NCBI GenBank assembly: GCA_026396195.1
Contig: JAPLXH010000001.1
Span: 1-54,827 of the forward strand
DNA: 54,827 nucleotides
Origin: Candidatus Nealsonbacteria bacterium
Lineage (GTDB): Bacteria; Patescibacteriota; Minisyncoccia; Minisyncoccales; JAGGXC01
Reading direction: 5' to 3'
Shown here: one piece after another, positions 29,145 to 54,762 of the stretch
Layout: each line of letters opens with the position of its first letter
Position numbering within the stretch: position 1 is the stretch's first letter
Made by a program: the position numbers and the translations under genes
The notes under the pieces: generated by a model
The model's input: only the letters and a program-made list of their open reading frames with translations
Databases searched by the model: none
What the model was told of the DNA's origin: nothing

Positions 29145-31010
29145 TTAAAGGTTTTCGAAATAAGGAATCAATTTTTTAAAAACTGCCAGGACTGCTTCTT
29201 TTTTTCTTTCTTTTGCGGCAACCTCCAGCTCCTTTAGGCTGTTTTCTAATTTTTCTTCGTTAACTTCAGAAAGTTTAGCGCTAAAAATATTCTGATTTTT
29301 AGTTACCAAAACACCTTCTTCGGCGGTTAAAATTTCTTCAAAAAGTTTTTCTCCAGGCCGAGGTTTTGTAAAAACAATGTGAATATCTTTGTCGGGTTCT
29401 AGGCCGGACAAACGAATTAAATCTTTGGCTAAGTTTAAAATTTTAATCGGTTTTCCCATGTCTAAAACAAATACTTCTCCTCCTTGACCCATTTCCGCCG
29501 CCTGCATTACCAAAAGACAAGCCTCTGAAATCAGCATGAAATACCTCTTCATTTCCGGATGGGTAACTTCAATTGGCCCTCCCTTTTTAATCTGTTCTTT
29601 AAAAATAGGAATAACGCTTCCCCTGCTATCTAAAACGTTGCCAAATCTTACTGATATAAATTTAGTAACGCCTTTTTTGTTTAAAAATTGGCAAACCATT
29701 TCCCCTATTCTTTTGGTGGCGCCCATCACAGAAGAAGGTTTTACGGCCTTATCGCTGGATATAAAAATAAATTTTTCCAATCCATACTTCATTGCCGCCT
29801 CTGCAACTGTCTTTGTTCCAAAAATATTATTTTTAACTGCTTCGTCCGGATGTTCCTCCATCAAATGAACGTGCTTGTAAGCAGCAGCGTGAAATAAAAC
29901 CTGAGGTTGAAATTTTTTGAAAAGATAATCAATTTTATCATTATCTTGAATATCGGCAATTTCAGCTGAAAAATTAAGGCTAGGAAACTTACCTCTTAAT
30001 TGTTCTGAAATATTAAAAATACCTGTTTCGTCCTGATCAAGCAAAATAATCAATGCGGGATTAAATTTTGCAATCTGCCTAGATAATTCAGAACCAATGG
30101 AACCGGCAGCTCCGGTAATTAAAATTTTTTTATTTTTTATAAAATTTTCAATTAAAGAAAGGTCTAAAAAAACAGGCTCCCTTTGAAGCAAGTACTCAAC
30201 CTTCAATTCTTTTAAGTCGGCTAAAGAAATTTGACCGTCGATGATTTCGGCAACAGAAGGAATTATTTTAATTTTCTTAATACCGGATTCTCTGCTTTTT
30301 TCTACCGCTTTTTTAATAACACTTGATCCGACAGAAGATAAAGCAATAATTATATTTTTTATTTGATTTTCTTTAACTATCTTAGGGATATCATCGATTC
30401 TCCCTAAAACTTTCAATCCGTGGATGGTAACCCCTTGTTTTATATCATTGTCGTCGATAAAACCAACCGGATAAAAAAAACTGGATTTTAAAATTAAAAT
30501 ACTTCTTGCAATTTGTTCTCCCGCATCACCGGCTCCAACAATCAGAGTTTTTTCTTTTAATTCAGAAAATTTTCTTTCAAAAATTTGCAAATAAACTCTT
30601 TTTGCAAAACGAATTCCTCCGCAAAATAAAATTATCAAAAAAAAGCTCACAACAAAAGTAGAGCGGGGAAAACCATAAAAAATAGCTTTATCTTTAAATA
30701 TAAAAAAAATTGCGCCTAAAATAGAAAATCCTACAATAGAAGACTTAGCTAAAGATATAAGCTCTTCGGCGCTAACAAAAGACCAAGAAAAAGAATAAAG
30801 CTTATTAAAATTAAAAATCGGAATTAAGAAAAATAAAGCCAAAACGGCCATTATTATGATAGCTCCAAAGTATTGACCAGGTATTTCAGCTTCAAATCTT
30901 AAAAAAAATGACAGATAAACAGCCAAGGGTATCAAGAATAAATCATTTAATAGAAAAAAAATCTTTCTAGTGGTTGGCGTTCTTTTTATTTTTTTCAATA
31001 ATTCCTTCAT
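29145..31010 (-). CDS. polysaccharide biosynthesis protein CapD/PglF/WbpM type (membrane-anchored NDP-HexNAc 4,6-dehydratase)
   Basis: Four N-terminal TM helices, two Rossmann motifs (VGAGDAGEQ, ITGAAGSIGSEL), and a catalytic region MGATKRIGE. Confidence 0.85.
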   Translation of the reverse strand: MKELLKKIKRTPTTRKIFFLLNDLFLIPLAVYLSFFLRFEAEIPGQYFGAIIIMAVLALFFLIPIFNFNKLYSFSWSFVSAEELISLAKSSIVGFSILGAIFFIFKDKAIFYGFPRSTFVVSFFLIILFCGGIRFAKRVYLQIFERKFSELKEKTLIVGAGDAGEQIARSILILKSSFFYPVGFIDDNDIKQGVTIHGLKVLGRIDDIPKIVKENQIKNIIIALSSVGSSVIKKAVEKSRESGIKKIKIIPSVAEIIDGQISLADLKELKVEYLLQREPVFLDLSLIENFIKNKKILITGAAGSIGSELSRQIAKFNPALIILLDQDETGIFNISEQLRGKFPSLNFSAEIADIQDNDKIDYLFKKFQPQVLFHAAAYKHVHLMEEHPDEAVKNNIFGTKTVAEAAMKYGLEKFIFISSDKAVKPSSVMGATKRIGEMVCQFLNKKGVTKFISVRFGNVLDSRGSVIPIFKEQIKKGGPIEVTHPEMKRYFMLISEACLLVMQAAEMGQGGEVFVLDMGKPIKILNLAKDLIRLSGLEPDKDIHIVFTKPRPGEKLFEEILTAEEGVLVTKNQNIFSAKLSEVNEEKLENSLKELEVAAKERKKEAVLAVFKKLIPYFENL

Positions 31011-31012
31011 TT

Positions 31013-32164
31013 TTAATTTTTATTAAAAAAATTTTTAATACAAGTTATTACGTATTCTGTTTGTTCATTCGTTAACTCGGGATATATCGGCAAAGATATA
31101 ACTTCTTTCGAAATTTGGTCTGTTTTTTGAAGATTAAAAGAGTGTAAGTTTGCCAATGACTCTTGGCGAAAATTCGGAATACCCCACTTAACAAGAATCT
31201 CTACTCCATTTTCTTCCAGATGCTTAATTAATAAGTCGCGTTTTTTAGTTCTAATAACATAATTCTGAAAAACATCAAAATAAGGACCTTCTTCCGTGGG
31301 AGGAGGTGGTAAAATTAAATCCCCCACTCCGAATAATTGCTTGTTATAAAAATTAGCAATTTCCCTTCTTCTTTTTATCCAGCCGGAAAAATATTTAAAT
31401 TTTACGTTCAAAAAAGCCGCCTGTAAGTTGTCTAAGATTGTATTGAAGCCATAAAAAGAAATTATACTGTTTTTGCTTTTCTTCTGCTCATCGGTCTTTA
31501 AATAAGACGGAGTTTCTCCATGATCTCTTAAAAGATAAAGTTTTTCGGCTAAATCTCTGTCGTCAACACACAGCATTCCTCCTTCTCCATAAGAACCTAA
31601 AATTTTTGCCGGATAAAAACTAAAGCAAGAGGTTTTACCGAAGGAGCCTACTGGTTGATTTTTATATCTGGCTCCCAAAGACTGGGCAGCGTCTTCAATT
31701 ATAATAAGGTTATGTCTTTTAGCAATATCCATAATCTTGTCCATCTCACAACAACGGCCATTGAGATGAACGGGAATTATGGCTTTGGTATTTTCTGTAA
31801 TTGCCGACTCTATTAACTCGGGATTCATATTAAAATCATCTCTGATATCGATTAAAACCGGCTTAGCGCCACAATGAACAATAACATCTATCGTAGCTAT
31901 ATAAGTATGGTCTACTGTAATTACCTCGTCTCCCGGCCCAATATTGTTGGCATATAAAGATAAAAATAAAGCACCCGTACAACTATCTGTTCCAACACCA
32001 TATTTTTTACCAACATAATCAGCAATATCTTTTTCGAGCTTCACTAAATCAGAACGATAAATTAAATCACCCGATTCCATTATTCTTTTAAAAACCGCGT
32101 CTATTTCTTTCTTTATTTTTTGATATTGAAGAGGATAATTTATAAAAGGAACCTTATAATTCAT
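31013..32164 (-). CDS. DegT/DnrJ/EryC1/StrS family sugar aminotransferase
   Basis: Family length and pattern, including SFYPAKILGSYGEGG (PLP lysine). Confidence 0.85.
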   Translation of the reverse strand: MNYKVPFINYPLQYQKIKKEIDAVFKRIMESGDLIYRSDLVKLEKDIADYVGKKYGVGTDSCTGALFLSLYANNIGPGDEVITVDHTYIATIDVIVHCGAKPVLIDIRDDFNMNPELIESAITENTKAIIPVHLNGRCCEMDKIMDIAKRHNLIIIEDAAQSLGARYKNQPVGSFGKTSCFSFYPAKILGSYGEGGMLCVDDRDLAEKLYLLRDHGETPSYLKTDEQKKSKNSIISFYGFNTILDNLQAAFLNVKFKYFSGWIKRRREIANFYNKQLFGVGDLILPPPPTEEGPYFDVFQNYVIRTKKRDLLIKHLEENGVEILVKWGIPNFRQESLANLHSFNLQKTDQISKEVISLPIYPELTNEQTEYVITCIKNFFNKN

Positions 32165-33093
32165 ATTTTTTTAATTTTTTCTTTATATTTTAAAATTTGG
32201 TTCACTATTTCTTCTGGAACAAAACCGTATTTCTGATGAAGATATTTAGTATCTCCTATTTCCAATGAATATTCGTCGGGTATTCCAATTATTTTGAAAA
32301 AACCTAAATAATCAGATTCTGCTAAAATTTCAGCCACTGCGGCCCCCAAACCACCCACAACACTATGTTCTTCCAGGGTAAATATTATTTTTTTATCTTT
32401 TATTTCTTCCAATAAAATTTTTTTATCTATCGGTTTAAGAGTATGGATACTTATTAATTTAAAATTGTAACCGAATTTTTCTAATTTATTAACCACGTCT
32501 CTCCCAACTTTCAAAAGAACGCCGGTAGTAATTATGGCCCCATCTTTTCCATTTTTTAAAATTGACGGCTTTCCTATGATAATATTGGGATTAAAATCAT
32601 ATAATGTCTCTTCTCCTTTTTTATTTAATCTAATGTAAGTTGGATTTTTTGTTTGATAAGATTTTAAAACCAATTCTTTCGTTTCTATGGGATCAGCGGG
32701 ACAAAGAACGGTCATATTCGGTAATGCCCTTAAAATAGCTAAATCTTCAATGGCATAATGGGTAACCCCTAAATTTCCATAAGTAACTCCTCCCCCTATT
32801 CCCACTATCTTTACGTCTAATTTTTGATAACAAACGTCATTCCTGACTTGTTCAAAACATCTCATTGTTACAAAAGGTATTATTGAATAAACATACGGTT
32901 TTTTTCCGGAAAGAGCCAGTCCGGCAGCTACGCCCATCATATTTTGCTCGGCCACTCCGCAGTTAATAAAGCGTTCTGGAAATTTTTCTATAAAATCCTC
33001 TAAAACAGAATAGCCCAGATCTCCCGTTAGAAAATAAATGTTTTTATCTTTTTCAGCCAATTCAACTAAAGTTTTAATAAATATTGTTCTCAT
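32161..33093 (-). CDS. transketolase, C-terminal subunit (Pyr and C-terminal domains)
   Basis: NCGVAEQNMMGVAAGLALSGKKPYV, full length of about 310 aa. Paired with 33096-33920. Confidence 0.85.
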   Translation of the reverse strand: MRTIFIKTLVELAEKDKNIYFLTGDLGYSVLEDFIEKFPERFINCGVAEQNMMGVAAGLALSGKKPYVYSIIPFVTMRCFEQVRNDVCYQKLDVKIVGIGGGVTYGNLGVTHYAIEDLAILRALPNMTVLCPADPIETKELVLKSYQTKNPTYIRLNKKGEETLYDFNPNIIIGKPSILKNGKDGAIITTGVLLKVGRDVVNKLEKFGYNFKLISIHTLKPIDKKILLEEIKDKKIIFTLEEHSVVGGLGAAVAEILAESDYLGFFKIIGIPDEYSLEIGDTKYLHQKYGFVPEEIVNQILKYKEKIKKI

Positions 33094-33095
33094 TT

Positions 33096-33920
33096 TTAAT
33101 CTAATTCTTTTAAAGCTTTTTTGTAATCTTCTTTGTTTAAATTTTTATAATGCCATTCTAGTTTATCTTCCATGAAAGAAATTCCTTTGCCTTTTACGGT
33201 GTTGGCAATCAATAAACTGGGCTTATTCTTTTCGAACGGAATTTTAGAAAAAGCATTTTGAATCTCAGAAAAATTATGCCCATTTATTTCTTTTACTTGC
33301 CAACCAAAAGCCAGCCATTTGTCTCGAAGCGGCTCCAGGGCCGTTATTTCGTTCGTTCTGCCGAAGGCTTGAAGTTTATTATAGTCAACAATTCCAATCA
33401 AATTATCTAATTTGTGATGGCTTGCAAACATCGCCGCCTCCCAAACTGAACCTTCTTCGCATTCGCCGTCTGACATTAAAACAAAAACCCTGTAATTTCT
33501 CAAATCTTTTTTCGCAGCAATGGCTATCCCAGCTCCCATGGAAAGACCGTGACCCAAAGAACCGGTTGATGCTTCTATACCCGGAACAGAATATTTGGTG
33601 GAATGGCCGGGCAATTTACTTCCGTCTTTACAGTAAGTATCTAAAATTTCTATCGGAAAAAAACCTCTTTGGCTAAGAACGGCGTAAAGGGCGGCTACCG
33701 CATGCCCCTTGCTTAAAATAAACCTGTCCCTATTTTCATCTAAAGGCTTTTTAACGTCTATAGAAAGCGTTTTAAAATAAAGAACAGATAAAATATCGAC
33801 AACAGAAAGACAGGAACCGAGATGGGCGGTCTGAGACTCGAAAAACATTTTTAAAATATTTCTACGGACATTTTTGGAAATTTGATTATAATCCATTTTT
33901 TCCAATTTAAAAAAATTCAA
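33096..33920 (-). CDS. transketolase, N-terminal (TPP-binding) subunit
   Basis: AHLGSCLS, LSKGHA and GSLGHGLSMGAGIA...SDGECEEG motifs. Confidence 0.85.
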   Translation of the reverse strand: MNFFKLEKMDYNQISKNVRRNILKMFFESQTAHLGSCLSVVDILSVLYFKTLSIDVKKPLDENRDRFILSKGHAVAALYAVLSQRGFFPIEILDTYCKDGSKLPGHSTKYSVPGIEASTGSLGHGLSMGAGIAIAAKKDLRNYRVFVLMSDGECEEGSVWEAAMFASHHKLDNLIGIVDYNKLQAFGRTNEITALEPLRDKWLAFGWQVKEINGHNFSEIQNAFSKIPFEKNKPSLLIANTVKGKGISFMEDKLEWHYKNLNKEDYKKALKELD

Positions 33921-34013
33921 GAAGTATTTAAATCTATCTATTTTAAATTAATTTTTAAAAAAAATCAAAAAGAAATAAATTACAGCCGAATATTTTTTTA
34001 CCTATGAACCGAC

Positions 34014-34607
34014 TTAAAACAAGGCTGATTTTAAAGTTTTAAGTATTATTTTAATATCAAGCCAAAAATTTCTTCTTCGGATATATTCTTTCGCTAATTT
34101 TAATTTATTTGGTTGAATAAACAATCTGTAAGTCTCGTGGGGATCTTTTGCCCCTCTTAAGATTTCTCCTTCGTGAACATTTTCTAGGGTTGCCAAATCT
34201 GTTATTCCCGGCTTTACACTCAAAATTATCTTTTTTGTTTCTTCGTCATACAAAGAAACTTCGGAAGGCACTTCCGGCCTAGGACCGACAAAACTCATTT
34301 CTCCCTTTAATACATTTATCAATTGAGGCAATTCGTCTAAATTATGTCTTTTTAAAAATTTCCCGATTTTTAAAAGCCTTGCGTCGTCGGCCGAAGTTGA
34401 AGGTCCCCCAATTTTATCGGCATTCATTACCATTGAACGGAACTTGAATATCTTAAAAATCTTTCCGTCCTTTCCCATTCTTTGGCCGAGATAAAAAGCA
34501 GATCCAGGAGATTCTCTCTTTATCAAAATGGCAATAATTAAAATAAACGGAGAGACAAAAATTAATCCCAATAAGGAAAATATAATATCAAATAATCTTT
34601 TAAACAT
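34014..34607 (-). CDS. undecaprenyl-phosphate sugar-phosphate transferase (Bac_transf, PglC/WbaP-like)
   Basis: One TM helix followed by DELPQLINVLKGEMSFVGPRPE and KPGITD. Confidence 0.85.
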   Translation of the reverse strand: MFKRLFDIIFSLLGLIFVSPFILIIAILIKRESPGSAFYLGQRMGKDGKIFKIFKFRSMVMNADKIGGPSTSADDARLLKIGKFLKRHNLDELPQLINVLKGEMSFVGPRPEVPSEVSLYDEETKKIILSVKPGITDLATLENVHEGEILRGAKDPHETYRLFIQPNKLKLAKEYIRRRNFWLDIKIILKTLKSALF

Positions 34608-35391
34608 ATTTTATTGTTTTTTTCATAATAAATACCGCCTTGAACCCGTATTTTCTTAAAAAAGGAATCGAAAGTAATGCCCTGTCAATTACTTCTAAAA
34701 TTTTTAAAATTATTTTACCACCGGGAATCTCGAGAAAAGGAATGGCTAAAAAAGAAACGATGTGGAAATGCCAAGCCTTAATTTCTCCAAAATATTTTTT
34801 CGCAAGTTTTAAACTGTTTAAGTTAAAAATGTGCCCCTCAGCCCACTCCGTTCTTTTACCAGTCGCCTTATTAAGCTTCCTTTTTAGGTTGGCCACGGGA
34901 TTATGGCCGAATGTTTCAATGCCGATCAAAATTCCGCCCGACTTTAAGACTCTGGCAATTTCAGTATAAACCTTTTCTATATCCAAAGAAGAAAAACTTC
35001 CTCCGTCAAAAACAACGTCAAAACTATTTCCCGCAAATTCCAATTTTTCGCAATCCATTGCCAAAAATTCAATTTTTCCTTCCATCCCCTCTCTTTTTGC
35101 CTTTTCTCTGGCAATTTTCAAGGATTTCTCAGATAAATCAATAGCAATAACTTTTTCGGCTCCCGTTCTCGCCAAAAAAACTGTATGGACGCCATTTCCG
35201 CAACCGTAATCTAAAACTTTTTTTCCTTTGCAATTTTCTTCCAATAATTTATAGCAAAAAGAAAAACTGCTTAAATCATTGGGTTTAAACCCTTCGAAAT
35301 CTCCTTCGGTTCCGACTAAATAACCTTTTTTCATTAGCTCTTCCGCCTTTTCGTCGTAATGTTCAATTTCTTTCTGTTTTCTGTATTCCAT
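34600..35391 (-). CDS. class I SAM-dependent methyltransferase
   Basis: Motif I VLDYGCGNG and the post-I AIDLS. Confidence 0.8.
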   Translation of the reverse strand: MEYRKQKEIEHYDEKAEELMKKGYLVGTEGDFEGFKPNDLSSFSFCYKLLEENCKGKKVLDYGCGNGVHTVFLARTGAEKVIAIDLSEKSLKIAREKAKREGMEGKIEFLAMDCEKLEFAGNSFDVVFDGGSFSSLDIEKVYTEIARVLKSGGILIGIETFGHNPVANLKRKLNKATGKRTEWAEGHIFNLNSLKLAKKYFGEIKAWHFHIVSFLAIPFLEIPGGKIILKILEVIDRALLSIPFLRKYGFKAVFIMKKTIKYV

Positions 35392-35401
35392 ACGTTTTAT
35401 C

Positions 35402-38576: not shown

Positions 38577-38636
38577 AATCTCATCCCTGATATAATTCGC
38601 TTTTTTTCTTAAGAATGTTTTTTTTTCTATTTCTTT
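38541..38636. repeat. direct repeat copy 1 (5' end and leader of the transketolase-like gene)
   Basis: By eye roughly 85-90% identical to 40114-40200, with two 3-nt indels. Confidence 0.75.
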
Positions 38637-40099: not shown

Positions 40100-40113
40100 G
40101 TGTTAATTCGCAT

Positions 40114-40200: not shown

Positions 40201-40213
40201 ATCAATTGGATAT

Positions 40214-44198: not shown

Positions 44199-44216
44199 AA
44201 AAAAAATATTAAATTT

Positions 44217-47320: not shown

Positions 47321-47346
47321 ATTTTTAATATTTTTATTTTTTATTT

Positions 47347-47799: not shown

Positions 47800-47819
47800 G
47801 TTGTTAATAATTTTTATTT

Positions 47820-49049: not shown

Positions 49050-49050
49050 T

Positions 49051-49905
49051 TTAGTAATAACTCGTTTTAAAATACTTTTGAATTTTTCTTTTCAGAGTGA
49101 CTAAATACCGCCAAGGCTTAAAAAGAGTCAATTCGGAAATAATTCTTCTCGGAAAAGGAGGTTTTTCAAGACCCTTGGAAGTTAAAATCCAATCGGCGTC
49201 TTGCAAAGAACACATCGAATTAAATCCGCCGGCCAATTCAAAAGTTCTTTGTCTTTCAATTTTATAAAATTTTGTTTCTTTTCTTGGACGATCGTGGTCC
49301 TGGTGAATAACAGTAACCTCGTGGGTTACATCTATAACCGGTATTCTTACAGATCTTGCGTGATAAATCATCCAATTGTCAGGTCCTGGAGATCCGATGA
49401 TAAATGGCGGAATTTCTCCGAAAAAATCTTTTGAAAAAACAAAATAGTCAATTGCCGAAGGGCCATGCAATTTTCCTTCTTTTCTAAGTTTCTCTTGAAG
49501 TTTTTCTTCCCAATTATCATCATTAAAATCAATTTCTTCCTCAACGTTTAAATCCCAACGCCTACCAACCATTAAAAAATTTTCTGCGTTTATTTTTGAA
49601 ACAGCTTTTGTAAAGTTACTAAATAAAATAATATCGCTTGTAAGCTGTCCAATAATAGGATTACTTGCTAATTTTCTTGCCATATTGACCGTAACGCCAA
49701 TAACGGGAGTTCCAAATTCGTTCAATTCAATTTCTGGAACGTGCCTAACGCAAAACTCAGCTGCCACCTCAGCTACGCCTTCCTCGTTACCGAATAAAAT
49801 AATTTCGCATTTCGGTCTGAGCAACGTCCAACTTTTAAGGGAATTTCTTTGCGGAATATTAAACGGATCTCGAAAAGCTCTAGGTACCGTAAAAAGCGTT
49901 ATCAT
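49051..49905 (-). CDS. hypothetical protein (284 aa) in the glycan locus
   Basis: Tightly packed ORF with no motif I can name. Confidence 0.5.
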   Translation of the reverse strand: MITLFTVPRAFRDPFNIPQRNSLKSWTLLRPKCEIILFGNEEGVAEVAAEFCVRHVPEIELNEFGTPVIGVTVNMARKLASNPIIGQLTSDIILFSNFTKAVSKINAENFLMVGRRWDLNVEEEIDFNDDNWEEKLQEKLRKEGKLHGPSAIDYFVFSKDFFGEIPPFIIGSPGPDNWMIYHARSVRIPVIDVTHEVTVIHQDHDRPRKETKFYKIERQRTFELAGGFNSMCSLQDADWILTSKGLEKPPFPRRIISELTLFKPWRYLVTLKRKIQKYFKTSYY

Positions 49906-51241
49906 GTTTTATTTTGTATAAATAATTTAATAATTCAACCGTGTCTTTAAATTTTTTTGCTTTATTTTTTTTTATTAACTTTTTTTGATATTTATTCTTT
50001 TTTATCAGTTCTAAAATATTACTTAACCTTAACTCACTATCAATGTGCTCAATTCCTTCAAAATTTTTATAATAATCCCCTAGAATCTCTCGATGAAAAT
50101 CTAAGGATAATATCGGTTTTCTCGGACATTTCAAAGATGCGATATACAAGCTTGTGCTTGCCGACAAAGGAAGACCGATAATAATCTTTGCACCATCTAT
50201 ATACTCATCTAACTGTTCTTTCGGATTTATAATTTTAATATTTTTTGAAATCGGTTCAAATTCCAACCTAGACCTTTCTATATCTTTATCTTTCGGGTGA
50301 TGCTTGATAATTATTTCCCAATCTGGAAAAAATCCGGTTATCAAACCAATTGTTTCTTTCCATTTTTTGTATCTTTCCTCTCTTGAAATTAAATGACAAT
50401 TATCTCGCCTGAATCCGATTTCTACCCAGCTTGATAATAAAACTAAAATAAAATTTTTTGCTTTTTTTCCCCCTGATATGTTTATAAAAAAATTTTTAAA
50501 CACCTTTCTGCTTTCCCTCGCCAACGGATGGGCTAAAATATAAATTTTCTCAGGCCGAACACCTTCCTTAAGAAACAACTGCCGATCTTTTTCCGAAAAA
50601 ACAATCAAATAATCGCTGTCCCCCATTCCTATATTCCCTTTTCTTAAAATATAACTTGCTTTTCCCGAAAAAGGTCTTTCCAAAACCAGCAAAGGTAAAA
50701 TCCAATAATAAAGAAAGTGGCCTAAATATTTTCTACATCTTGTTAAAAAAAGTCTTAATTTAAGAGGCAAAAAAGAAGGAAATCTCAAATAAGCATTGGT
50801 AAGGTCCACGAATTTCTCGCCGTTTTTACTGTCTCCGATGTTTGATGGCTGAATAATAATTCTTAGGGCGCCTATTTTCTTGGCAAATCTTAATAAATAC
50901 ATTTCAAAAAGAGAATGTATGTCGCTTGGCGATATAACAATATCCGGATTACATTTTAAAATAGCGTCTTTGGCTAAATTATAAAGATATCTGTTTTTAG
51001 CAAATAAGCCTTTTTTTTCGCCTGTAAATTGATGAACCGGTATGATTTTCTCTAATCTCGGGAATAATTTTTTATCAGCAATAATATTTTCCGTTTCAGA
51101 ATCTAACTTTTCAGATAATAAAATTGTCGGATAAGCATGCGTAATTTCATAAAAATGCCCGATTTGGGTAGTTCGAAAAACTCTTGGAATATTTGTGTAA
51201 AAAATAACTTTTTTTATTTTTGGACAAGTCTCTGATTCCAT
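49880..51241 (-). CDS. hypothetical protein (453 aa), possibly a GT-B-like transferase
   Basis: Two-lobed length and an IIKHHPKD motif reminiscent of the HP motifs of capsule/sialyl-type transferases. Weak evidence. Confidence 0.4.
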   Translation of the reverse strand: MESETCPKIKKVIFYTNIPRVFRTTQIGHFYEITHAYPTILLSEKLDSETENIIADKKLFPRLEKIIPVHQFTGEKKGLFAKNRYLYNLAKDAILKCNPDIVISPSDIHSLFEMYLLRFAKKIGALRIIIQPSNIGDSKNGEKFVDLTNAYLRFPSFLPLKLRLFLTRCRKYLGHFLYYWILPLLVLERPFSGKASYILRKGNIGMGDSDYLIVFSEKDRQLFLKEGVRPEKIYILAHPLARESRKVFKNFFINISGGKKAKNFILVLLSSWVEIGFRRDNCHLISREERYKKWKETIGLITGFFPDWEIIIKHHPKDKDIERSRLEFEPISKNIKIINPKEQLDEYIDGAKIIIGLPLSASTSLYIASLKCPRKPILSLDFHREILGDYYKNFEGIEHIDSELRLSNILELIKKNKYQKKLIKKNKAKKFKDTVELLNYLYKIKHDNAFYGT

Positions 51242-51243
51242 TT

Positions 51244-52155
51244 TTAACTTTTTATATTTTTATAATAATCAATTGTTCTGGTAATTCCCTCCCTCAGGCT
51301 TACTTTTGGTTCATAATTTAAAAGGCGCTTCGCTTTGCTGTAATTTGAATACATGCGCTTAATATCTTGCTTTCTGGGTTCCAAAAATTTTATCTCTATT
51401 TTGTTTCCAATCTTCTTCTTAATTAAAGAGGTAAGCTCTAATAAAGAATACGATTTTTTTCCCGGAATATTAAAAATTTCCAATCCTTTTGTTTCATAAT
51501 AAATGCTTTTTATAATTCCCTTTACTGCGTCATCAATATATAAAAAATCTCTGTGTTGTTCTCCATCTCCATGAATTTTTAACGGCCTTTTTTTAAGCGC
51601 TGAATTAAGAGAATCAGATAACACCCCTATTCCTATTTTCTGCCCAGGTCCGTAAGTGCTTGATAAACGCAAAATAATAATCGGGATTTTGTATTTATCC
51701 GAATAAAATTTATAAATCTTTTCCGCCATGTATTTTGAAAAACCATATTCGGTTATTGGTTTTGGACAATCGGATTCAATATGGGGTTTGCCCGTGTATT
51801 CTCCATAGACAGCCTCGGAGGAAATAAAAATTATTTTCTTTATATCGGACTCCTTGCAAACCTCCAAAAGATTGGAGCTGCCAAGAACATTTATCAAGTA
51901 AAAATCCTTCCTGAAAGAACCCACTAAGTTTATCACGATGTCTGACTTCTTAAGGGCTCTTTTTAAAGCTTTTTTATCTAAAATACTCCCTTTTAAAAAA
52001 CTGAGGTTTTTATTCTTAAAAGGCGGAGGGGTTTTGTCGTAGATTAAAAGATTAATATTTCTTCCTTCTTTCAGAAGTTCTTTTGTTAATGTTTGCCCAA
52101 TAAAACCGGCGCCCCCGCAAATAAATATTCTTTTTTTATTTTTAGAATTATGCAT
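51244..52155 (-). CDS. NAD-dependent sugar epimerase/dehydratase (extended SDR)
   Basis: CGGAGFIGQTL and YGFSKYMAE (YxxxK). Confidence 0.8.
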   Translation of the reverse strand: MHNSKNKKRIFICGGAGFIGQTLTKELLKEGRNINLLIYDKTPPPFKNKNLSFLKGSILDKKALKRALKKSDIVINLVGSFRKDFYLINVLGSSNLLEVCKESDIKKIIFISSEAVYGEYTGKPHIESDCPKPITEYGFSKYMAEKIYKFYSDKYKIPIIILRLSSTYGPGQKIGIGVLSDSLNSALKKRPLKIHGDGEQHRDFLYIDDAVKGIIKSIYYETKGLEIFNIPGKKSYSLLELTSLIKKKIGNKIEIKFLEPRKQDIKRMYSNYSKAKRLLNYEPKVSLREGITRTIDYYKNIKS

Positions 52156-52160
52156 TTTAA

Positions 52161-53327
52161 TTAATCTATAAATCTTTTTTGTATCGGAATGTTTTTAATG
52201 TCTATGGTTTTTAAAATTTTTATAATTCTTTCGGCGGAGTGTCCGTCTCCGTAGGGATTTTTAACATTCTGCACAATTTCCTTAAATTTTTTATCATAAA
52301 GAGCCTTTCTTATCGCGTTTTTAATTTCTTCCTTCTGATAAGAACTATCAATGACATTTTTAGGCCGCTCTCTTCCTTGTTGACGCGTTCCTATATTAAC
52401 CGTTGGGACATGTAATGTTGCCGTTTCGTGAATACCCGTGGAAGAATTGCCTATTAAGGCCTCTGAATAACGCAACACATTAATAAAAATTTCCGAAGAA
52501 AGGCTTTTTATATAACTGATATGAGAGTTACGGATTCCTGAAATAATCGCGCTTGTTCCCGCATCATTATTAGGGTAAAAAATGACTCCCTGAATTCCAA
52601 TTTCTTTTACGGCTTCCAAAGTTTGTGTTATTTGCCATCCAGCCTGGTCTATTTCGCTTGTTACCGAATGTTGGACAATGACAACATAGGGTTGCTCAGA
52701 ATTAAGCTTAAGCATTCCCATGATATTCTTTCTGGAAATAACGGGAGATTGGACCAAAACATCTATCGAGGGACAACCAACAACGAAAATAAATCTCGGA
52801 TCCTCCCCCATCCTTCTAATCCTGTTTGCCGCTTCCTTAGTCGCCGCGAAATGAATATTGGCAAATTTTGAGGTTGCGTGTCTTAACGACTCATCAATGC
52901 TTCCCGTTATTTCTCCTCCTTGAATGTGAGCAACGGGAATGTTCATGTGCGCTCCTACGACTGCGGCGGAAAAATTAGCGCCGATATCAAAACCGGTTAA
53001 AACAAGATCCGGTTTTAACGCTTCAAAAACATCTGAAAGACCACTCATAACGCGGCTGTAAGCGCGAGTCATTTCAGCGCCGCTGTCAGGCGCATTTTCT
53101 CTAAACATTGGAATAACGGATGCAATTTTGAATCCGTCGCGTTTAATAATTTTGATATCTTCTCCGTAATTTTTTAAAAGACTTATTCCGGTAACAATCA
53201 ATTTATAATCAAAGAAAGGATCGTTTTCCATAAGCGATAAAATTGGTTTAAACCGAGAATAATCGGCTCTTCTTTCCGATACAATAGCAACTCGCAATTT
53301 TTGTTTTAGTCTTGAATTTGTTCCCAT
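52161..53327 (-). CDS. neuC: UDP-N-acetylglucosamine 2-epimerase, hydrolysing (NeuC/LegG type)
   Basis: Epimerase_2 pattern (SERRADYSRFKPIL, HIQGGEITGSIDE, IGNSSTG). Overlaps the neuB-like gene. Confidence 0.8.
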   Translation of the reverse strand: MGTNSRLKQKLRVAIVSERRADYSRFKPILSLMENDPFFDYKLIVTGISLLKNYGEDIKIIKRDGFKIASVIPMFRENAPDSGAEMTRAYSRVMSGLSDVFEALKPDLVLTGFDIGANFSAAVVGAHMNIPVAHIQGGEITGSIDESLRHATSKFANIHFAATKEAANRIRRMGEDPRFIFVVGCPSIDVLVQSPVISRKNIMGMLKLNSEQPYVVIVQHSVTSEIDQAGWQITQTLEAVKEIGIQGVIFYPNNDAGTSAIISGIRNSHISYIKSLSSEIFINVLRYSEALIGNSSTGIHETATLHVPTVNIGTRQQGRERPKNVIDSSYQKEEIKNAIRKALYDKKFKEIVQNVKNPYGDGHSAERIIKILKTIDIKNIPIQKRFID

Positions 53328-54394
53328 TTTATTAAAGTATTCTTAGGAATTAGAATTCGGGTTCTTTTACCAATAATTTGTTTATAATCTTTCGAGCGTA
53401 TTCCTGTCCCGGGACGTTTTGAAGTCAATATTTCTCTTGTAATAATTGAACCTTTGGGGATATCGACCAAAGAAACAATGCTCCGCTTTGCCCATTCCGC
53501 CACCGGCTTTTCTTCGTTAAAAACTTTTCGCTCCTTACCCAATGCTTCTTCTGCTGCTTTAACGGTTTCAATAATATCTTTTAAATCCTGCGGATTTAAC
53601 GAAAAACAACTGTCAGCGTCGGCTTGTTTCCTGTCAAGAGTAAAATGTTTTTCAATAAAATTTGCACCTTGATGTACGGCAGCCCATATTCTTGCTTCAT
53701 GACTTACGGCAATTCCACTTATTGATTTAATAAAATCCGGCGGAGTATGGTCGGAAAGGCCCACAGGAACGCCATAACGTTTTTTAAACAGGGAAATTAC
53801 TCCGTAATTCAATTGGTTTGCTTTCTGTCCTTCATATATCGATAAACAATGGGCGAAAGCATAAGGCGTACCTGAATTTTGAATAGTTTGCGCGATAAAG
53901 TCAATCTCGGAAAGGTCGCTCATGCCGGTTGAAATAATCATAGGGCGTTTCATTTTTACAATCTCTTCTATCATTAATAAATCTTCTGTTTCTCCTGAAC
54001 CGATTTTAAAACCATAAACTCCCATTTGATTAAGAATTTCTGCGGCTCGCGAAGAAAAAGGCGTGCAAAAATATTGTATTCCGATTTTGTCGCAATACTG
54101 TTTTAATTGATAATGGTCATCAACCGATAATCTGAATTTATTAACAAAATCCCAAATTGACCCCCATTTGGCAAGCATTTCTTTCGAAGCCGCTATGGCC
54201 TCGTCTTTTACCATTTCTTCTTCCGGCAAATGCAACTGCCATTTAATTATTTTCGCGCCGGAAATTTTTGCTGCATAAGCCATTTCTTTAGCCCGTTCTA
54301 GCGAACCCATGTGATTGTCGCACCCGTCGGGCACGACAAGGCATGGCTGCTCGTCCCCTATTATAATATCGTTTAATATTATTTTTGAAGACAT
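53306..54394 (-). CDS. neuB: nonulosonic acid synthase (NeuB family) with C-terminal SAF domain
   Basis: NeuB TIM-barrel pattern (GAKIIKWQLH, KIGSGE, GLSDHT) and a SAF-like tail (IPKGSIITREILTSKRPGTG). Confidence 0.8.
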   Translation of the reverse strand: MSSKIILNDIIIGDEQPCLVVPDGCDNHMGSLERAKEMAYAAKISGAKIIKWQLHLPEEEMVKDEAIAASKEMLAKWGSIWDFVNKFRLSVDDHYQLKQYCDKIGIQYFCTPFSSRAAEILNQMGVYGFKIGSGETEDLLMIEEIVKMKRPMIISTGMSDLSEIDFIAQTIQNSGTPYAFAHCLSIYEGQKANQLNYGVISLFKKRYGVPVGLSDHTPPDFIKSISGIAVSHEARIWAAVHQGANFIEKHFTLDRKQADADSCFSLNPQDLKDIIETVKAAEEALGKERKVFNEEKPVAEWAKRSIVSLVDIPKGSIITREILTSKRPGTGIRSKDYKQIIGKRTRILIPKNTLIKWEQIQD

Positions 54395-54408
54395 TGTTTT
54401 TTTGAATA

Positions 54409-54762
54409 TTATTTATAATTTTTTATTTTAACAACAATATATTTGATTCCTTTTTTTTTGGTTGACAATTTATGAAACATTCTGCTCGGAATATAAACCA
54501 AATCGCCTTGCCTTATTTTTAATTTCTTTTTCCGATTAATCAATAAATTGCCCTCGCCTTCAATTACACATAAAAAATCATCTTCTTTCTCGTGGACTTC
54601 TTCTTTGCCCTCGAATCCGGGGAAAAAATCCATGAAAAAAATAATGGGAATTTTTTTAAACACCAAAGAAGACCTGTCTCCTTTATTAAGCCGATCCAAC
54701 CGATTAAATGTTTCTTTTATCTTCTCGGGTTTAATGATAAATTGTAATTTTTTGCTTTTCAT
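54409..54762 (-). CDS. cupin domain protein
   Basis: HEKEDDFLCVIEGEG...GDLVYIPSRMFH is a two-motif cupin pattern. Confidence 0.6.
   Translation of the reverse strand: MKSKKLQFIIKPEKIKETFNRLDRLNKGDRSSLVFKKIPIIFFMDFFPGFEGKEEVHEKEDDFLCVIEGEGNLLINRKKKLKIRQGDLVYIPSRMFHKLSTKKKGIKYIVVKIKNYK

What the first reader, a model, noticed from the sequence alone, without database searches (positions are those of the whole stretch)
29145..54762. ~26-kb glycan locus merging nucleotide-heptose and nonulosonate pathways with three radical SAM enzymes and two TPP transketolase-like pairs
Twenty-six co-oriented, tightly packed genes make up the locus. The standard glycan genes are:
- a PglF/CapD-type dehydratase and a DegT aminotransferase;
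- an initiating sugar-phosphate transferase;
- two GT2 glycosyltransferases and a methyltransferase;
- a GmhA-GmhB fusion and a nucleotidyltransferase-kinase fusion;
- two SDR epimerases;
- NeuC and NeuB;
- a cupin protein, and GT-C-like and unknown proteins.
Embedded in this standard toolkit are two B12-binding class-B-type radical SAM proteins (38627-40099, 47820-49049). There is also one radical SAM protein with a Cys-rich tail (40214-41305) and two split transketolase-like pairs (32161-33920, 37310-38576). Class B rSAM enzymes typically methylate unactivated carbons, and TPP enzymes transfer two-carbon units. Inference: the locus makes a C-methylated, branched or chain-extended heptose/nonulosonate glycan for which I cannot name a described pathway. 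It occupies a strikingly large coding fraction for a reduced genome. One transketolase pair may simply supply sedoheptulose-7-phosphate for GmhA.
Basis: partly seen in the sequence, partly recalled or inferred. Interest (0 to 1): 0.65.

Follow-up and report, generated by a model that had tools for sequence, protein, structure and literature searches.

The report
Radical-SAM and thiamine sugar-tailoring glycan locus
A freshwater-sediment bacterium carries a surface-sugar gene cluster holding a seven-gene cassette, also found in many unrelated bacteria, that joins a heptose-type sugar pathway to two radical enzymes and a thiamine enzyme, which points to an undescribed way of building an unusual sugar.

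Summary

The locus is not one merged pathway. It has four layers:
- **Backbone (26990-36400).** This layer is conserved in related contigs: GT2, methyltransferase, PglC, split transketolase TK1, DegT, PglF and a Wzy_C protein. TK1 is a genuine split transketolase. It keeps this position in relatives that have no radical SAM (rSAM) or heptose genes, so it is probably housekeeping.
- **Cassette A (37310-45206).** It holds a C4-epimerase-like SDR, a nucleotidyltransferase-kinase fusion, a GmhA-GmhB fusion, a SPASM/twitch rSAM, a class-B (B12) rSAM and a minimal thiamine (TPP) enzyme pair. Orthologues of these genes recur together across phyla. A TPP pair occurs in 12 of 25 orthologous loci and in 0 of 139 control B12-rSAM loci. 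Relatives of the SPASM rSAM are found fused to the isomerase, the nucleotidyltransferase, or a whole TPP enzyme.
- **Probable cobalamin capture pair (46769-47799).** DUF6580 and DUF4430.
- **Cassette B (47820-54762).** A second B12-rSAM with NeuB, NeuC, an SDR and unknown proteins.

Most likely cassette A turns an NDP-heptose into a branched or extended, C-methylated sugar. The product itself is inferred. I found no described pathway. Interest is moderately high.

The parts
54409..54762 (-). Small cupin (117 aa), first gene before the window end. Possibly a sugar isomerase or epimerase of cassette B.
   Evidence: Cupin_2 at 37 bits. A cupin also stands upstream of the SDR-rSAM-DegT block in L166.
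53306..54394 (-). NeuB-family ulosonic acid synthase with a SAF domain.
   Evidence: PF03102 at 198 bits. NeuB_NnaB scores 249 bits, below the 400-bit equivalog cut-off.
52161..53327 (-). NeuC-type hydrolysing NDP-HexNAc 2-epimerase.
   Evidence: TIGR03568 at 376 bits against a cut-off of 236.
51244..52155 (-). Extended SDR (SDR_a), closest to sugar 4,6-dehydratases, with an SSEAVYG motif.
   Evidence: Epimerase at 156 bits. dTDP-glucose 4,6-dehydratase is the best NCBIfam hit at 130 bits, below cut-off. Sequence.
49880..51241 (-). Soluble protein of unknown family (453 aa), part of cassette B.
   Evidence: No Pfam or NCBIfam hit. A 57% orthologue lies in Patescibacteria locus L165.
49051..49905 (-). 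Soluble protein of unknown family (284 aa), immediately upstream of B12-rSAM 1.
   Evidence: No family hit. A 71% orthologue is in the same position in L165, and a 37% match lies inside a Methyltransf_21 protein in L167.
47820..49049 (-). Class-B-type (B12-binding) radical SAM 1, with a CPFKCAFC cluster motif.
   Evidence: Radical_SAM at 98 bits and B12-binding at 29.5 bits. Orthologues are 79-86% identical in Patescibacteria. Orthologues of 59-64% are always flanked by an SDR and a DegT.
47347..47799 (-). Membrane-anchored DUF4430 protein, probably an extracytoplasmic cobalamin binder.
   Evidence: PF14478 at 69 bits. One N-terminal hydrophobic segment. DUF4430 is the C-terminal domain of transcobalamins (PMC4350170). 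The same pair lies beside further B12-rSAM genes in L165.
46769..47320 (-). Small polytopic DUF6580 membrane protein, the inferred partner of DUF4430 in cobalamin uptake.
   Evidence: PF20221 at 170 bits. A 60% orthologue is adjacent to DUF4430 in L165. The role is inferred only.
45334..46758 (-). Polytopic membrane protein (474 aa, at least 8 hydrophobic segments and one large loop). Possibly a polymerase, flippase or GT-C.
   Evidence: No family hit. Hydropathy. No similarity to the PMT_2 protein of L165.
44217..45206 (-). SDR_b, an NDP-sugar C4-epimerase or oxidoreductase-like SDR of cassette A.
   Evidence: Best solved relatives are WbpP, WbgU and GalE. The motif is AASSTCYG...YxxxK with no TDE. 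Orthologues of 59-67% occur in L001, L003, L089 and L097.
42666..44198 (-). Nucleotidyltransferase (N-terminal) fused to a PfkB kinase (C-terminal). HldE-like with reversed domain order.
   Evidence: CTP_transf_like and PfkB. rfaE domains I and II hit at 94 and 92 bits, below cut-offs. Present in 10 of 25 orthologous loci and 0 of 139 controls.
41310..42635 (-). GmhA-like SIS isomerase fused to a GmhB-like HAD phosphatase.
   Evidence: SIS_2 and HAD. gmhA scores 90 bits and GmhB 86 bits, both below equivalog cut-offs.
40214..41305 (-). Radical SAM with a SPASM/twitch tail carrying one four-Cys auxiliary cluster site. Proposed radical step that creates a carbonyl on the sugar.
   Evidence: Radical_SAM at 77 bits and SPASM at 42 bits. 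CX3CX2C plus C274, C293, C337 and C341 are invariant in 7 orthologues. Relatives are fused to SIS, nucleotidyltransferase, a complete TPP enzyme or a methyltransferase.
38627..40099 (-). Class-B (B12-binding) radical SAM 2, the signature gene of cassette A and a probable C-methyltransferase.
   Evidence: B12-binding at 78 bits and Radical_SAM at 85 bits. More than 70 clusters are 51-66% identical across phyla. The closest solved structure is 9CCB, QCMT, a Csp3 methylase (PMC12931638). The AF2 model has pLDDT 88.7.
37800..38576 (-). TK2 alpha, the PP (diphosphate-binding) domain of a minimal TPP enzyme.
   Evidence: Transketolase_N at 102 bits. The His of the transketolase LPGH motif is Cys in all 4 orthologues.
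37310..37816 (-). TK2 beta, a Pyr domain only with no transketolase C-terminal domain.
   Evidence: Transket_pyr at 59 bits. All four orthologues end after the Pyr domain. The Ser of the GDLGYS motif is replaced.
36405..37280 (-). GT2 glycosyltransferase (GT2_a), in the variable part of the locus.
   Evidence: Glycos_transf_2 at 102 bits.
35402..36400 (-). GT2 glycosyltransferase (GT2_b), part of the conserved backbone.
   Evidence: Glycos_transf_2 at 106 bits. Orthologues of 52-69% lie beside PglC in L168 and L169.
34600..35391 (-). Class I SAM methyltransferase.
   Evidence: Methyltransf_25 at 86 bits.
34014..34607 (-). Small PglC-type initiating phosphoglycosyl transferase.
   Evidence: Bac_transf at 199 bits. 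Orthologues of 68-74% occur in L168 and L169.
33096..33920 (-). TK1 N-terminal chain of a genuine split transketolase, probably housekeeping.
   Evidence: 260 bits to the Carboxydothermus split transketolase 6yak. Orthologues of 73-76% sit in the same synteny without rSAM or heptose genes.
32161..33093 (-). TK1 C-terminal chain (Pyr plus C domains).
   Evidence: 229 bits to 6yaj. A large family is 60-73% identical. A transaldolase follows the pair in L169.
31013..32164 (-). DegT/PglE-type sugar aminotransferase.
   Evidence: PF01041 at 343 bits. Backbone orthologues are 53-54% identical.
29145..31010 (-). Membrane-anchored PglF/CapD-type 4,6-dehydratase.
   Evidence: Polysacc_synt_2 at 365 bits. 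Orthologues are 59-63% identical.
26990..29089 (-). Wzy_C-domain polytopic protein (ligase, O-oligosaccharyltransferase or polymerase).
   Evidence: Wzy_C at 72 bits. Orthologues of 36-44% hold the same position before MurB in L168 and L170.

Best explanation
The region is a lipid-carrier-based surface-glycan locus of a Patescibacteria-like bacterium from freshwater sediment. It is built from four layers.

**1. Backbone.** The backbone is conserved in the lineage. PglF and DegT make a bacillosamine-type first sugar, PglC puts it on the lipid carrier, a GT2 extends it, and a Wzy_C protein transfers or polymerises the glycan. A genuine split transketolase (TK1) is carried along in this synteny and is probably housekeeping.

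**2. Cassette A (37310-45206).** This cassette is mobile.
- GmhA-GmhB and the nucleotidyltransferase-kinase fusion make an NDP-heptose-type sugar.
- The epimerase-like SDR and the SPASM/twitch rSAM remodel it. The rSAM most likely creates a carbonyl by radical dehydration or dehydrogenation.
- The minimal TPP enzyme adds an acyl-anion unit, most simply two carbons, to that carbonyl.
- The class-B rSAM methylates an unactivated carbon.
- The result would be a branched or chain-extended, C-methylated heptose-derived sugar, which the GT2 enzymes would install.

**3. Cobalamin supply.** DUF4430 and DUF6580 capture cobalamin for the B12 enzymes.

**4. Cassette B.** A second class-B rSAM works with a dehydratase-like SDR, an aminotransferase, NeuC and NeuB on an amino-deoxy sugar or nonulosonate.

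**Shown:** gene content, cassette conservation, the fusions and the identity of TK1. **Inferred:** substrate identity, order of steps and products.
For: - **Domains.**
- **Cassette A recurs across phyla.** Orthologues of the 38627-40099 rSAM (52-66% identity; Wallbacteria, Smithellaceae, Rhodospirillaceae, Sulfuricella, Magnetococcales) lie beside several partners:
  - a TPP alpha/beta pair;
  - the reversed HldE-like fusion (25-45% identity);
  - GmhA;
  - SDR_b (59-67%);
  - the SPASM rSAM (39-50%, plus a 30% relative in L101).
- **Control.** Orthologous loci against 139 loci that hold only a distant B12-rSAM: TPP pair 12/25 against 0/139, nucleotidyltransferase-kinase 10/25 against 0/139, SDR_b 7/25 against 0/139, SPASM rSAM 8/25 against 3/139.
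- **Flank-corrected count.** 10 of 12 independent loci with at least 4.5 kb of flank carry a TPP pair.
- **Interchangeable TPP enzymes.** The partner is a minimal TK-like pair (window, L086, L089, L097) or an E1 alpha/beta pair (L001, L002, L003, L085, L087, L101, L102). In one relative it is a whole ALS/YerE-type TPP enzyme fused to the SPASM rSAM (P0432).
- **Other fusions.** SIS-rSAM (P0395; the SIS part is 35% identical to the window's GmhA) and nucleotidyltransferase-rSAM (P0397, P0436, P0468; 42% identical to the window's NT domain).
- **Heptose hint.** In Sulfuricella (L002) the cassette lacks the activation genes but includes a GT9 heptosyltransferase-family gene (43 bits).
- **TK2 differs from TK1.** It has a conserved His-to-Cys change and no C-terminal domain.
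- **TK1 is a real transketolase in conserved synteny**.
- **Nearest relatives of the B12-rSAM.** The closest solved structure is the Csp3 methylase QCMT (PMC12931638). The best NCBIfam hit is a methylase family.
- **Precedents for TPP-dependent sugar branching.** YerE, ErwE and Plm8/Plm9 (PMC9306805, PMC4802897).
- **Cobalamin pair.** DUF4430 is the transcobalamin C-terminal domain (PMC4350170). The DUF4430-DUF6580 pair recurs next to B12-rSAMs in L165.
- **Cassette B.** Its synteny is seen in L165-L167.
Against: - No enzyme of cassette A reaches an NCBIfam equivalog cut-off. GmhA scores 90 against 209, HldE 133 against 521, and GmhB 86 against 178. The substrate may therefore not be sedoheptulose-7-P or heptose.
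- Class-B rSAMs also catalyse non-methylating chemistry (AprD4, OxsB, BchE). AprD4 is the second-best solved match.
- The SPASM rSAM is missing from several cassette-A loci (L001, L085-L087), so it is not obligatory.
- The order of steps is unsupported by any direct data.
- No CMP-ulosonate synthetase or N-acetyltransferase is seen in the window for cassette B. The window end may have cut it off.
- All related loci are metagenomic, and no glycan structure is known for any of them.
- The role of DUF6580 rests on adjacency only.
Confidence: 0.6

Rival explanations
1. The TPP enzyme works upstream rather than as a tailoring step. It builds the ketose phosphate (sedoheptulose-7-P or a longer octulose-8-P type sugar) that GmhA, the kinase, GmhB and the nucleotidyltransferase then activate. 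This is the logic recalled for the lincomycin octose pathway. The rSAM enzymes then modify the activated sugar.
For: TK2 is transketolase-like (142 bits to a split transketolase) and always travels with the activation genes. The activation enzymes are too divergent to be called heptose-specific.
Against: - In most loci the TPP partner is an E1-type 2-oxoacid enzyme. In one relative it is an ALS/YerE-type enzyme fused to the rSAM. These types use 2-oxoacid donors, not ketose phosphates.
- TK2 lacks the C-terminal domain, a catalytic-site His and a Ser that TK1 keeps.
- The window already has a genuine transketolase.
- In L002 the TPP pair is present without any activation genes.
Confidence: 0.17
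2. The class-B rSAM enzymes are not methyltransferases. They catalyse other radical chemistry on the sugar, such as dehydration as in AprD4, ring contraction as in OxsB, or cyclisation as in BchE. The product would then be deoxygenated or rearranged rather than C-methylated.
For: AprD4 is the second-best solved match (49 bits). BchE and HpnJ models score 129-154 bits. No equivalog cut-off is reached.
Against: The best solved match and the best NCBIfam model are methylases (QCMT at 73 bits; the Sden_1168 family at 250 bits). Most characterised sugar-acting class-B enzymes listed in PMC12931638 (GenK, GenD1, Fom3, MoeK5) are Csp3 methylases.
Confidence: 0.2
3. Cassette A does not make a glycosyl donor. 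It makes a nucleotide-activated polyol or phospho-substituent, following the logic of Fom3 (which acts on a cytidylylated alcohol) or CDP-glucitol. That group then decorates the glycan as a phosphodiester side group.
For: - The nucleotidyltransferase belongs to the glycerol-3-P cytidylyltransferase-like family.
- One orthologue of the B12-rSAM is labelled phosphonoacetaldehyde methylase by a source, and its best NCBIfam model comes from phosphonate clusters.
- CDP-6-D-glucitol is a known capsule precursor (title of PMC10918830, listed).
Against: The complete isomerase, kinase, phosphatase and nucleotidyltransferase set mirrors the NDP-heptose route. No PEP mutase is present in the window or in the related loci. 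A GT9 heptosyltransferase-family gene sits inside the L002 cassette.
Confidence: 0.08
4. The rSAM and TPP genes belong to unrelated cofactor or lipid pathways and only happen to lie in this glycan locus.
For: TK1 does appear to be a housekeeping gene carried in the locus.
Against: Cassette A is conserved across phyla with a clean control. Domain fusions join its components. Cassette B keeps its synteny in L165-L167.
Confidence: 0.03

Closest known systems
ADP-L-glycero-beta-D-manno-heptose pathway (GmhA, HldE, GmhB, HldD)
   Same: The same four activities are present: SIS isomerase, PfkB kinase, HAD phosphatase and cytidylyltransferase-like nucleotidyltransferase. An SDR is adjacent.
   Different: The fusions differ: GmhA is fused to GmhB, and the nucleotidyltransferase comes before the kinase. 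All scores are far below the equivalog cut-offs. The SDR resembles WbpP/GalE C4 epimerases more than HldD.
ThDP-dependent branching of NDP-keto-sugars (YerE in yersiniose, ErwE in erwiniose, MyGE; E1-type Plm8/Plm9 in paulomycose, AviB1/B2)
   Same: A thiamine enzyme sits inside a sugar pathway. E1 alpha/beta pairs occupy the equivalent position in most cassette-A loci, and a YerE/ALS-type enzyme is fused to the SPASM rSAM in one relative (PMC9306805, PMC4802897).
   Different: - The window's enzyme is a minimal transketolase-like pair without a C-terminal domain.
- The sugar is heptose-type rather than a 3,6-dideoxyhexose.
- The carbonyl is probably made by a radical SAM enzyme.
- A B12-rSAM always accompanies the TPP enzyme.
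Class-B radical SAM sugar and alcohol C-methyltransferases (GenK, GenD1, Fom3, MoeK5); solved relative QCMT (9CCB)
   Same: An N-terminal B12 domain plus a CX3CX2C radical SAM core. The closest solved and modelled relatives are Csp3 methylases (PMC12931638).
   Different: Those enzymes work in antibiotic or cofactor pathways. These two proteins sit in surface-glycan cassettes and fall in no curated family (best score 250 against a 575-bit cut-off).
SPASM/twitch radical SAM enzymes acting on sugars or nucleotides (BtrN, viperin, BlsE, anSME)
   Same: A radical SAM core plus a C-terminal Cys-ligated auxiliary cluster. There are weak matches to viperins and BlsE and to the prokaryotic viperin model (77 bits).
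   Different: Only four conserved C-terminal Cys residues are present, enough for one auxiliary cluster. The best model is the uncharacterised tungsten-cofactor maturase family at 108 bits against a cut-off of 380. Fusions to SIS, NT and TPP domains are unique to this family.
Campylobacter/Neisseria pgl-type glycosylation loci (PglF, PglE, PglC and a Wzy_C-type O-oligosaccharyltransferase or ligase)
   Same: A membrane-anchored 4,6-dehydratase, a DegT aminotransferase, a small PglC-type transferase, GT2 enzymes and a Wzy_C protein are all present.
   Different: No PglD acetyltransferase or flippase was recognised. A split transketolase is embedded in the backbone. The acceptor of the glycan is unknown.
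Nonulosonic acid pathways (Neu, Leg, Pse)
   Same: NeuC passes its equivalog cut-off. A NeuB-family synthase, a dehydratase-like SDR and a DegT are also present.
   Different: NeuB is below its cut-off. No CMP-transferase or N-acetyltransferase is seen in the window. A B12-rSAM and two unknown proteins are intercalated and conserved with it.

Membership tests
Class B (cobalamin-binding) radical SAM | CX3CX2C radical SAM cluster motif in a PF04055 core | tested here: met
   The motif is CPHHCYFC in 38627-40099 and CPFKCAFC in 47820-49049. PF04055 scores 85 and 98 bits. C240, C244 and C247 are invariant in 25 orthologues.
Class B (cobalamin-binding) radical SAM | N-terminal B12-binding (Rossmann-like) domain | tested here: met
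   PF02310 scores 78 bits against a cut-off of 32 for 38627-40099. The AF2 model has pLDDT 88.7 with alternating strand and helix in residues 15-190. For 47820-49049 the score is only 29.5 bits, just below the cut-off, but its orthologues carry PF02310.
Class B (cobalamin-binding) radical SAM | Cobalamin-dependent methyl transfer to carbon | not testable with these tools
   Only homology to methylases is available.
SPASM/twitch radical SAM | C-terminal Cys motif for one (twitch) or two (SPASM) auxiliary 4Fe-4S clusters | tested here: inconclusive
   PF13186 scores 42 bits against a cut-off of 21.5. Only four C-terminal Cys residues are conserved (C274, C293, C337, C341). That is enough for one cluster, so the protein is twitch-like rather than full SPASM.
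Transketolase (EC 2.2.1.1), TK1 pair 32161-33920 | PP, Pyr and C-terminal domains, with close similarity to characterised transketolases | tested here: met
   All three Pfam domains are present. Scores are 281 bits to human transketolase and 260 plus 229 bits to the Carboxydothermus split transketolase. The motifs AHLGS, SKGH, LPGH, WH and GDLGYS are present.
Transketolase (EC 2.2.1.1), TK2 pair 37310-38576 | PP, Pyr and C-terminal domains, with the conserved substrate-site His and Ser | tested here: not met
   There is no C-terminal domain. The His of LPGH is Cys, and the Ser of GDLGYS is Gly or Ala. Both changes are conserved in 4 orthologues. The TPP-binding GDG...N motif and the Pyr-domain Glu are retained.
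ADP-heptose pathway enzymes (GmhA, HldE, GmhB) | Score above the NCBIfam equivalog cut-offs | tested here: not met
   gmhA scores 90 against 209, GmhB 86 against 178 and HldE 133 against 521. The domain types are present, but these are not equivalogs.
NeuC (hydrolysing UDP-GlcNAc 2-epimerase) | Equivalog cut-off of TIGR03568 | tested here: met
   376 bits against 236.
NeuB (N-acetylneuraminate synthase) | Equivalog cut-off of TIGR03569 or TIGR03586 | tested here: not met
   249 bits against 400, and 210 against 340. The Pfam NeuB and SAF domains are present.
Transcobalamin-type cobalamin binder | DUF4430 (transcobalamin C-terminal) domain; cobalamin binding | tested here: inconclusive
   The domain is present at 69 bits, and the link to transcobalamin is documented in PMC4350170. 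Binding was not tested. There is no solved homologue by sequence.

The most novel reading that the evidence does not exclude
Cassette A encodes a new route to higher-carbon sugars in cell-surface glycans, and the route is widespread across phyla. The proposed steps are:
1. A twitch-type radical SAM enzyme makes a carbonyl on an NDP-heptose.
2. A thiamine enzyme, interchangeable among three architectures, ligates an acyl-anion unit onto that carbonyl.
3. A cobalamin radical SAM enzyme adds a methyl group, giving a C9-C10 branched or extended sugar.

In loci that also carry NeuC and NeuB (the window, L086, L097), this sugar may be condensed with phosphoenolpyruvate to give an ulosonic acid longer than nine carbons.
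Probability: 0.3. Interest if true: 0.8.

Novelty: new variant of a known kind. Interest (0 to 1): 0.66.

Why it matters
- **Enzymology.** Radical SAM and cobalamin chemistry are well known in antibiotic sugar tailoring. I found no description of them in surface-glycan pathways. Here a defined seven-gene cassette links the two, with clear orthologues in Proteobacteria, Desulfobacterota-type lineages, candidate phyla and Patescibacteria.
- **A tractable target.** The cassette is compact enough for heterologous expression, and it could reveal new sugars and a new order of radical, thiamine and cobalamin steps.
- **Method.** The three interchangeable TPP architectures and the domain fusions show how gene fusions can assign rSAM enzymes of unknown function to a pathway.
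- **Ecology.** A small-genome bacterium appears to devote about half of a 55-kb stretch to a B12-dependent surface glycan and carries its own probable B12 capture genes. That ties its surface chemistry to cobalamin supplied by its neighbours.

Tried and rejected
- **Genome-contig scan with the rSAM alignment.** It returned mostly distant paralogues. Only L005 (80% identity, on a 2.4-kb contig labelled Woesearchaeota and not investigated further) and L006 were orthologues. The paralogous loci served later as controls.
- **Plasmid and phage collections.** No orthologues of either B12-rSAM or of DUF6580 were found.
- **AF2 model of DUF6580.** Made from a single sequence, it had pLDDT 54 and was unusable.
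- **Promoter and terminator scan.** Counts were at or near the shuffled expectation in this AT-rich DNA: 78 promoter-like sites against 72 expected, and 20 terminator-like sites against 13.4 (sd 3.6). It was uninformative.
- **Rfam.** Only RNase P and tRNAs were found, and no cobalamin riboswitch at gathering threshold. The gaps around 46769-49049 are at most 26 bp, too short for one.
- **Pfam at E up to 5.** Nothing was found for the three unknown proteins.
- **Similarity of unk474 to the PMT_2 protein of L165.** None.
- **Literature.** Searches combining radical SAM, heptose, cobalamin, thiamine and glycan terms found no described pathway.
- **Phosphonate reading.** Rejected because no PEP mutase is present in the window or in related loci.
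- **Cluster look-up.** All named relatives are MAGs with generic or BchE-type labels. No cultured carrier was identified.

Full report
**1. Observation**

The window is bacterial: it holds a class A RNase P RNA at 11688-12095. It has low GC (0.30-0.38), and every supported gene lies on the minus strand.

Between 29145 and 54762 there are 25 ORFs of at least 80 aa. Gaps run from -26 to +127 bp and 97.8% of the stretch is coding.

- Standard glycan genes:
  - PglF/CapD, DegT and a PglC-type Bac_transf;
  - two GT2 enzymes and a class I methyltransferase;
  - a SIS+HAD fusion and a cytidylyltransferase-like+PfkB fusion;
  - two extended SDRs;
  - NeuC (above its equivalog cut-off), a NeuB-family synthase and a cupin.
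- Unusual genes: two B12-binding radical SAM proteins, one radical SAM protein with a SPASM tail, and two transketolase-like pairs.

Corrections:
- There are 25 genes, not 26.
- The B12 domain of 47820-49049 is marginal (29.5 bits against a 32.1-bit cut-off).
- The second TK pair lacks a C-terminal domain.
- The two small 'unknown' genes are DUF4430 and DUF6580.
- The locus extends down to a Wzy_C protein at 26990-29089, and the window end truncates it at the other side.

**2. The locus has layers**

*Backbone.* Orthologues of TK1_C (60-73% identity, a very large family) were traced to three long contigs.
- Two of them carry the run TK_N, TK_C, DegT, PglF, Wzy_C, MurB and ribosome hibernation factor, the same order as window 25427-33920. 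In L168, GT2_b and PglC precede the run as well. L170 begins inside TK_N, so nothing upstream of it can be read.
- Neither contains rSAM or heptose genes.
- In the third contig (L169) the TK pair is followed by a transaldolase.
- TK1 scores 281 bits to human transketolase and 260+229 bits to the characterised split transketolase of Carboxydothermus. It keeps the usual active-site motifs.

TK1 is therefore a genuine transketolase held in a lineage-conserved synteny. It is not a tailoring enzyme of the variable part.

*Cassette A (37310-45206).* The B12-rSAM at 38627-40099 has a tight orthologue family. More than 70 clusters are 51-66% identical over the full length. The few that carry names are MAGs of Wallbacteria, Smithellaceae, Rhodospirillaceae, Sulfuricella and Magnetococcales.

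Neighbourhoods of these orthologues come from three contig look-ups and a metagenome scan. Blastp against the window's proteins shows a recurrent set:
- SDR_b (59-67%);
- the nucleotidyltransferase-kinase fusion (25-45%);
- GmhA;
- the SPASM rSAM (39-50%, plus a 30% relative in L101);
- always a TPP alpha/beta pair. This is either the minimal TK2 type (L086, L089, L097; 43-65%) or an E1_dh plus Transket_pyr/C type (L001, L002, L003, L085, L087, L101, L102).

The control set is 139 loci fetched only because they hold a distant B12-rSAM (23-33% identity):

| Partner | Orthologous loci | Control loci |
|---|---|---|
| TPP pair | 12 of 25 | 0 of 139 |
| Nucleotidyltransferase-kinase | 10 of 25 | 0 of 139 |
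| SDR_b | 7 of 25 | 0 of 139 |
| SPASM rSAM | 8 of 25 | 3 of 139 |

Most of the 25 loci that lack partners are contigs of 1.7-4.7 kb. Counting independent loci with at least 4.5 kb of flank, 10 of 12 carry the TPP pair.

*Fusions.* An exhaustive search with the SPASM rSAM found 481 clusters at E of 1e-30 or better. Some relatives at 37-50% identity are fused:
- to a SIS domain (P0395);
- to a cytidylyltransferase-like domain (P0397, P0436, P0468);
- to a class I methyltransferase (P0418);
- to a complete ALS/YerE-type TPP enzyme (P0432).

The fused nucleotidyltransferase domain is 42% identical to that of the window's fusion protein. The fused SIS domain is 35% identical to the window's GmhA part.

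So three independent lines tie the SPASM rSAM, the TPP enzyme and the sugar activation enzymes into one pathway: conserved neighbourhood, a clean control and gene fusion.

*Cobalamin pair.*
- DUF4430 (47347-47799) has one N-terminal hydrophobic anchor. Its domain is the one found at the C-terminus of transcobalamins (PMC4350170).
- DUF6580 (46769-47320) is a small polytopic membrane protein.
- The same pair (55% and 60% identity) lies beside two further B12-rSAM genes in a Patescibacteria contig (L165).
- It is absent from all other fetched loci.

I read the pair as a cobalamin capture and uptake device serving the class-B enzymes. This rests on domain identity and adjacency only.

*Cassette B (47820-54762).*
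- The second B12-rSAM has 79-86% orthologues in Patescibacteria.
- In L165 it is again preceded by the 284-aa unknown protein (71%). It is accompanied by the 453-aa unknown protein (57%), an SDR, a NeuC-like gene, a NeuB-family gene and a DegT.
- More distant orthologues (59-64%) on two contigs rich in small ORFs always sit between an SDR and a DegT. In both contigs the annotated rSAM and DegT genes overlap by 8 bp (11229-11236 in L166, 10994-11001 in L167). Methyltransferases follow.
- This rSAM therefore works on an amino-deoxy sugar. In the window and in L165 that sugar is probably a nonulosonate precursor.
- No CMP-transferase or N-acetyltransferase is visible. The cassette may continue beyond the window end.

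**3. How cassette A most likely works**

*Shown.*
- The four activities of the NDP-heptose route are present, though all are far below equivalog cut-offs.
- SDR_b resembles the WbpP, WbgU and GalE C4 epimerases. It lacks the Asp-Glu pair of 4,6-dehydratases.
- The SPASM rSAM has the CX3CX2C motif plus exactly four invariant C-terminal Cys residues, enough for one fully ligated auxiliary cluster. Its weak nearest relatives act on nucleotides or nucleoside sugars: viperins and BlsE.
- TK2 keeps the TPP-binding motifs. In all four orthologues it replaces a transketolase active-site His by Cys and a Ser by Gly or Ala, and it ends after the Pyr domain.
- The closest solved structure to the B12-rSAM is the Csp3 methylase QCMT (PMC12931638). 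Its best curated model is a methylase family. An alignment-based AF2 model is confident, with pLDDT 88.7.

*Inferred.*
- The TPP partner can be TK-like, E1-like or YerE-like. The chemistry required is therefore the generic one these enzymes share: addition of a thiamine-bound acyl anion to a carbonyl.
- That is how YerE, ErwE and the E1-type Plm8/Plm9 attach branches to NDP-keto-sugars (PMC9306805, PMC4802897).
- A carbonyl has to be made first. The SPASM/twitch rSAM could do this by radical dehydration (viperin-like) or dehydrogenation (BtrN- or anSME-like). SDR_b is another candidate.
- Cassette variants without the SPASM rSAM (L085-L087) carry two DegT homologues instead. This fits an alternative, PMP/PLP-based way of preparing the acceptor.
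- The class-B rSAM would then methylate an unactivated carbon, as GenK and Fom3 do on hydroxymethyl carbons.
- The reduced cassette in Sulfuricella (L002) has no activation genes, but a GT9 heptosyltransferase-family gene lies between the E1 pair and another rSAM. This suits a host that already makes ADP-heptose, and it supports heptose as the scaffold.

The order of steps and the product are hypotheses.

**4. Rivals**
- The TPP enzyme might instead build the ketose phosphate precursor. The E1-type and YerE-type replacements, the L002 architecture and the presence of a real transketolase argue against this.
- The B12-rSAMs might not be methylases. AprD4 is the second-best structural relative.
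- The product might be a nucleotide-activated polyol or phospho-substituent rather than a glycosyl donor. There is no PEP mutase, and the full isomerase, kinase, phosphatase and transferase set argues for an aldose-1-phosphate route.
- Fortuitous adjacency holds only for TK1.

**5. Relation between the two cassettes**

They are separable. Cassette A occurs without NeuB or NeuC in L002, L089 and L102. Cassette B occurs without heptose genes in L165-L167.

They also co-occur more often than expected:
- NeuB and NeuC lie next to cassette A in L086, and NeuB alone in L097.
- CMP-ulosonate-synthetase-family genes lie near it in L001 and L003.
- Among the 139 control loci only L151 has NeuB.

Feeding of the modified heptose into a NeuB-type condensation is therefore not excluded. 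I give it as part of the novel case.

**6. Novelty and verdict**

Full-text searches found no paper that links radical SAM enzymes to heptose glycans, or that describes this cassette. All database labels for the orthologues are generic or wrongly BchE.

The individual enzyme classes and the idea of TPP-dependent sugar branching are known. What I found no description of is their combination in a conserved, widely distributed surface-glycan cassette. The same applies to the minimal TK2 clade and to the embedded cobalamin capture pair.

I rate it a new variant of a known kind, with moderately high interest. The window comes from a freshwater sediment metagenome. Close relatives of cassette B and of the backbone are labelled Patescibacteria. 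The genome size claim could not be tested.

Noticed in passing
window 46769-47799; L165 11904-12942: A DUF4430 protein (transcobalamin-type domain, membrane-anchored) and a DUF6580 protein (small polytopic membrane protein) lie between the two rSAM cassettes. The same pair recurs beside two more B12-rSAM genes in a Patescibacteria contig. It is probably a cobalamin capture and uptake pair.
   Followed up: partly
L166 1-21236 (JGI Ga0209635_10000044): A 59% orthologue of B12-rSAM 1 sits in a cupin-SDR-rSAM-DegT-methyltransferase block. The contig is full of small ORFs and also carries DNA ligase, dCMP deaminase and PAPS reductase genes. It looks like a phage or other mobile element carrying sugar-tailoring genes.
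   Followed up: no
L167 14074-17238: A 1054-aa radical SAM protein is interrupted by an intein (Intein_splicing and LAGLIDADG hits). It lies next to another cassette-B-like block.
   Followed up: no
L002 2282-13934 (Sulfuricella MAG GCA_028714315.1): A reduced cassette A holds the SPASM rSAM, an E1 pair, a GT9 heptosyltransferase-family gene, an extra rSAM and B12-rSAM 2. It is flanked by two very large TPR proteins and lies close to flagellar genes, which hints at flagellin or surface-protein glycosylation.
   Followed up: partly
L006 9677-11481 (Rhodospirillales MAG): The orthologue of B12-rSAM 2 is split into two overlapping ORFs and has no cassette partners nearby. This may be a frameshifted pseudogene or an assembly error.
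   Followed up: no
L061 1411-11785 (Sedimentisphaerales MAG): A SPASM rSAM orthologue (44%) lies next to a full-length split TK pair (40-46% to TK1), two further SPASM rSAMs, a DegT and a distant B12-rSAM. This appears to be a fourth cassette arrangement.
   Followed up: no
window 1-54827: All supported genes of the whole 54.8-kb contig are on one strand, with uniformly negative GC skew. RNase P RNA is at 11688-12095, and three tRNAs lie at 6296-6367 and 9195-9356.
   Followed up: no
window 17944-18978: A 344-aa protein combines sigma-70 region 4 with a HARE-HTH domain. It lies downstream of the SecDF genes, and this is an unusual domain pairing.
   Followed up: no
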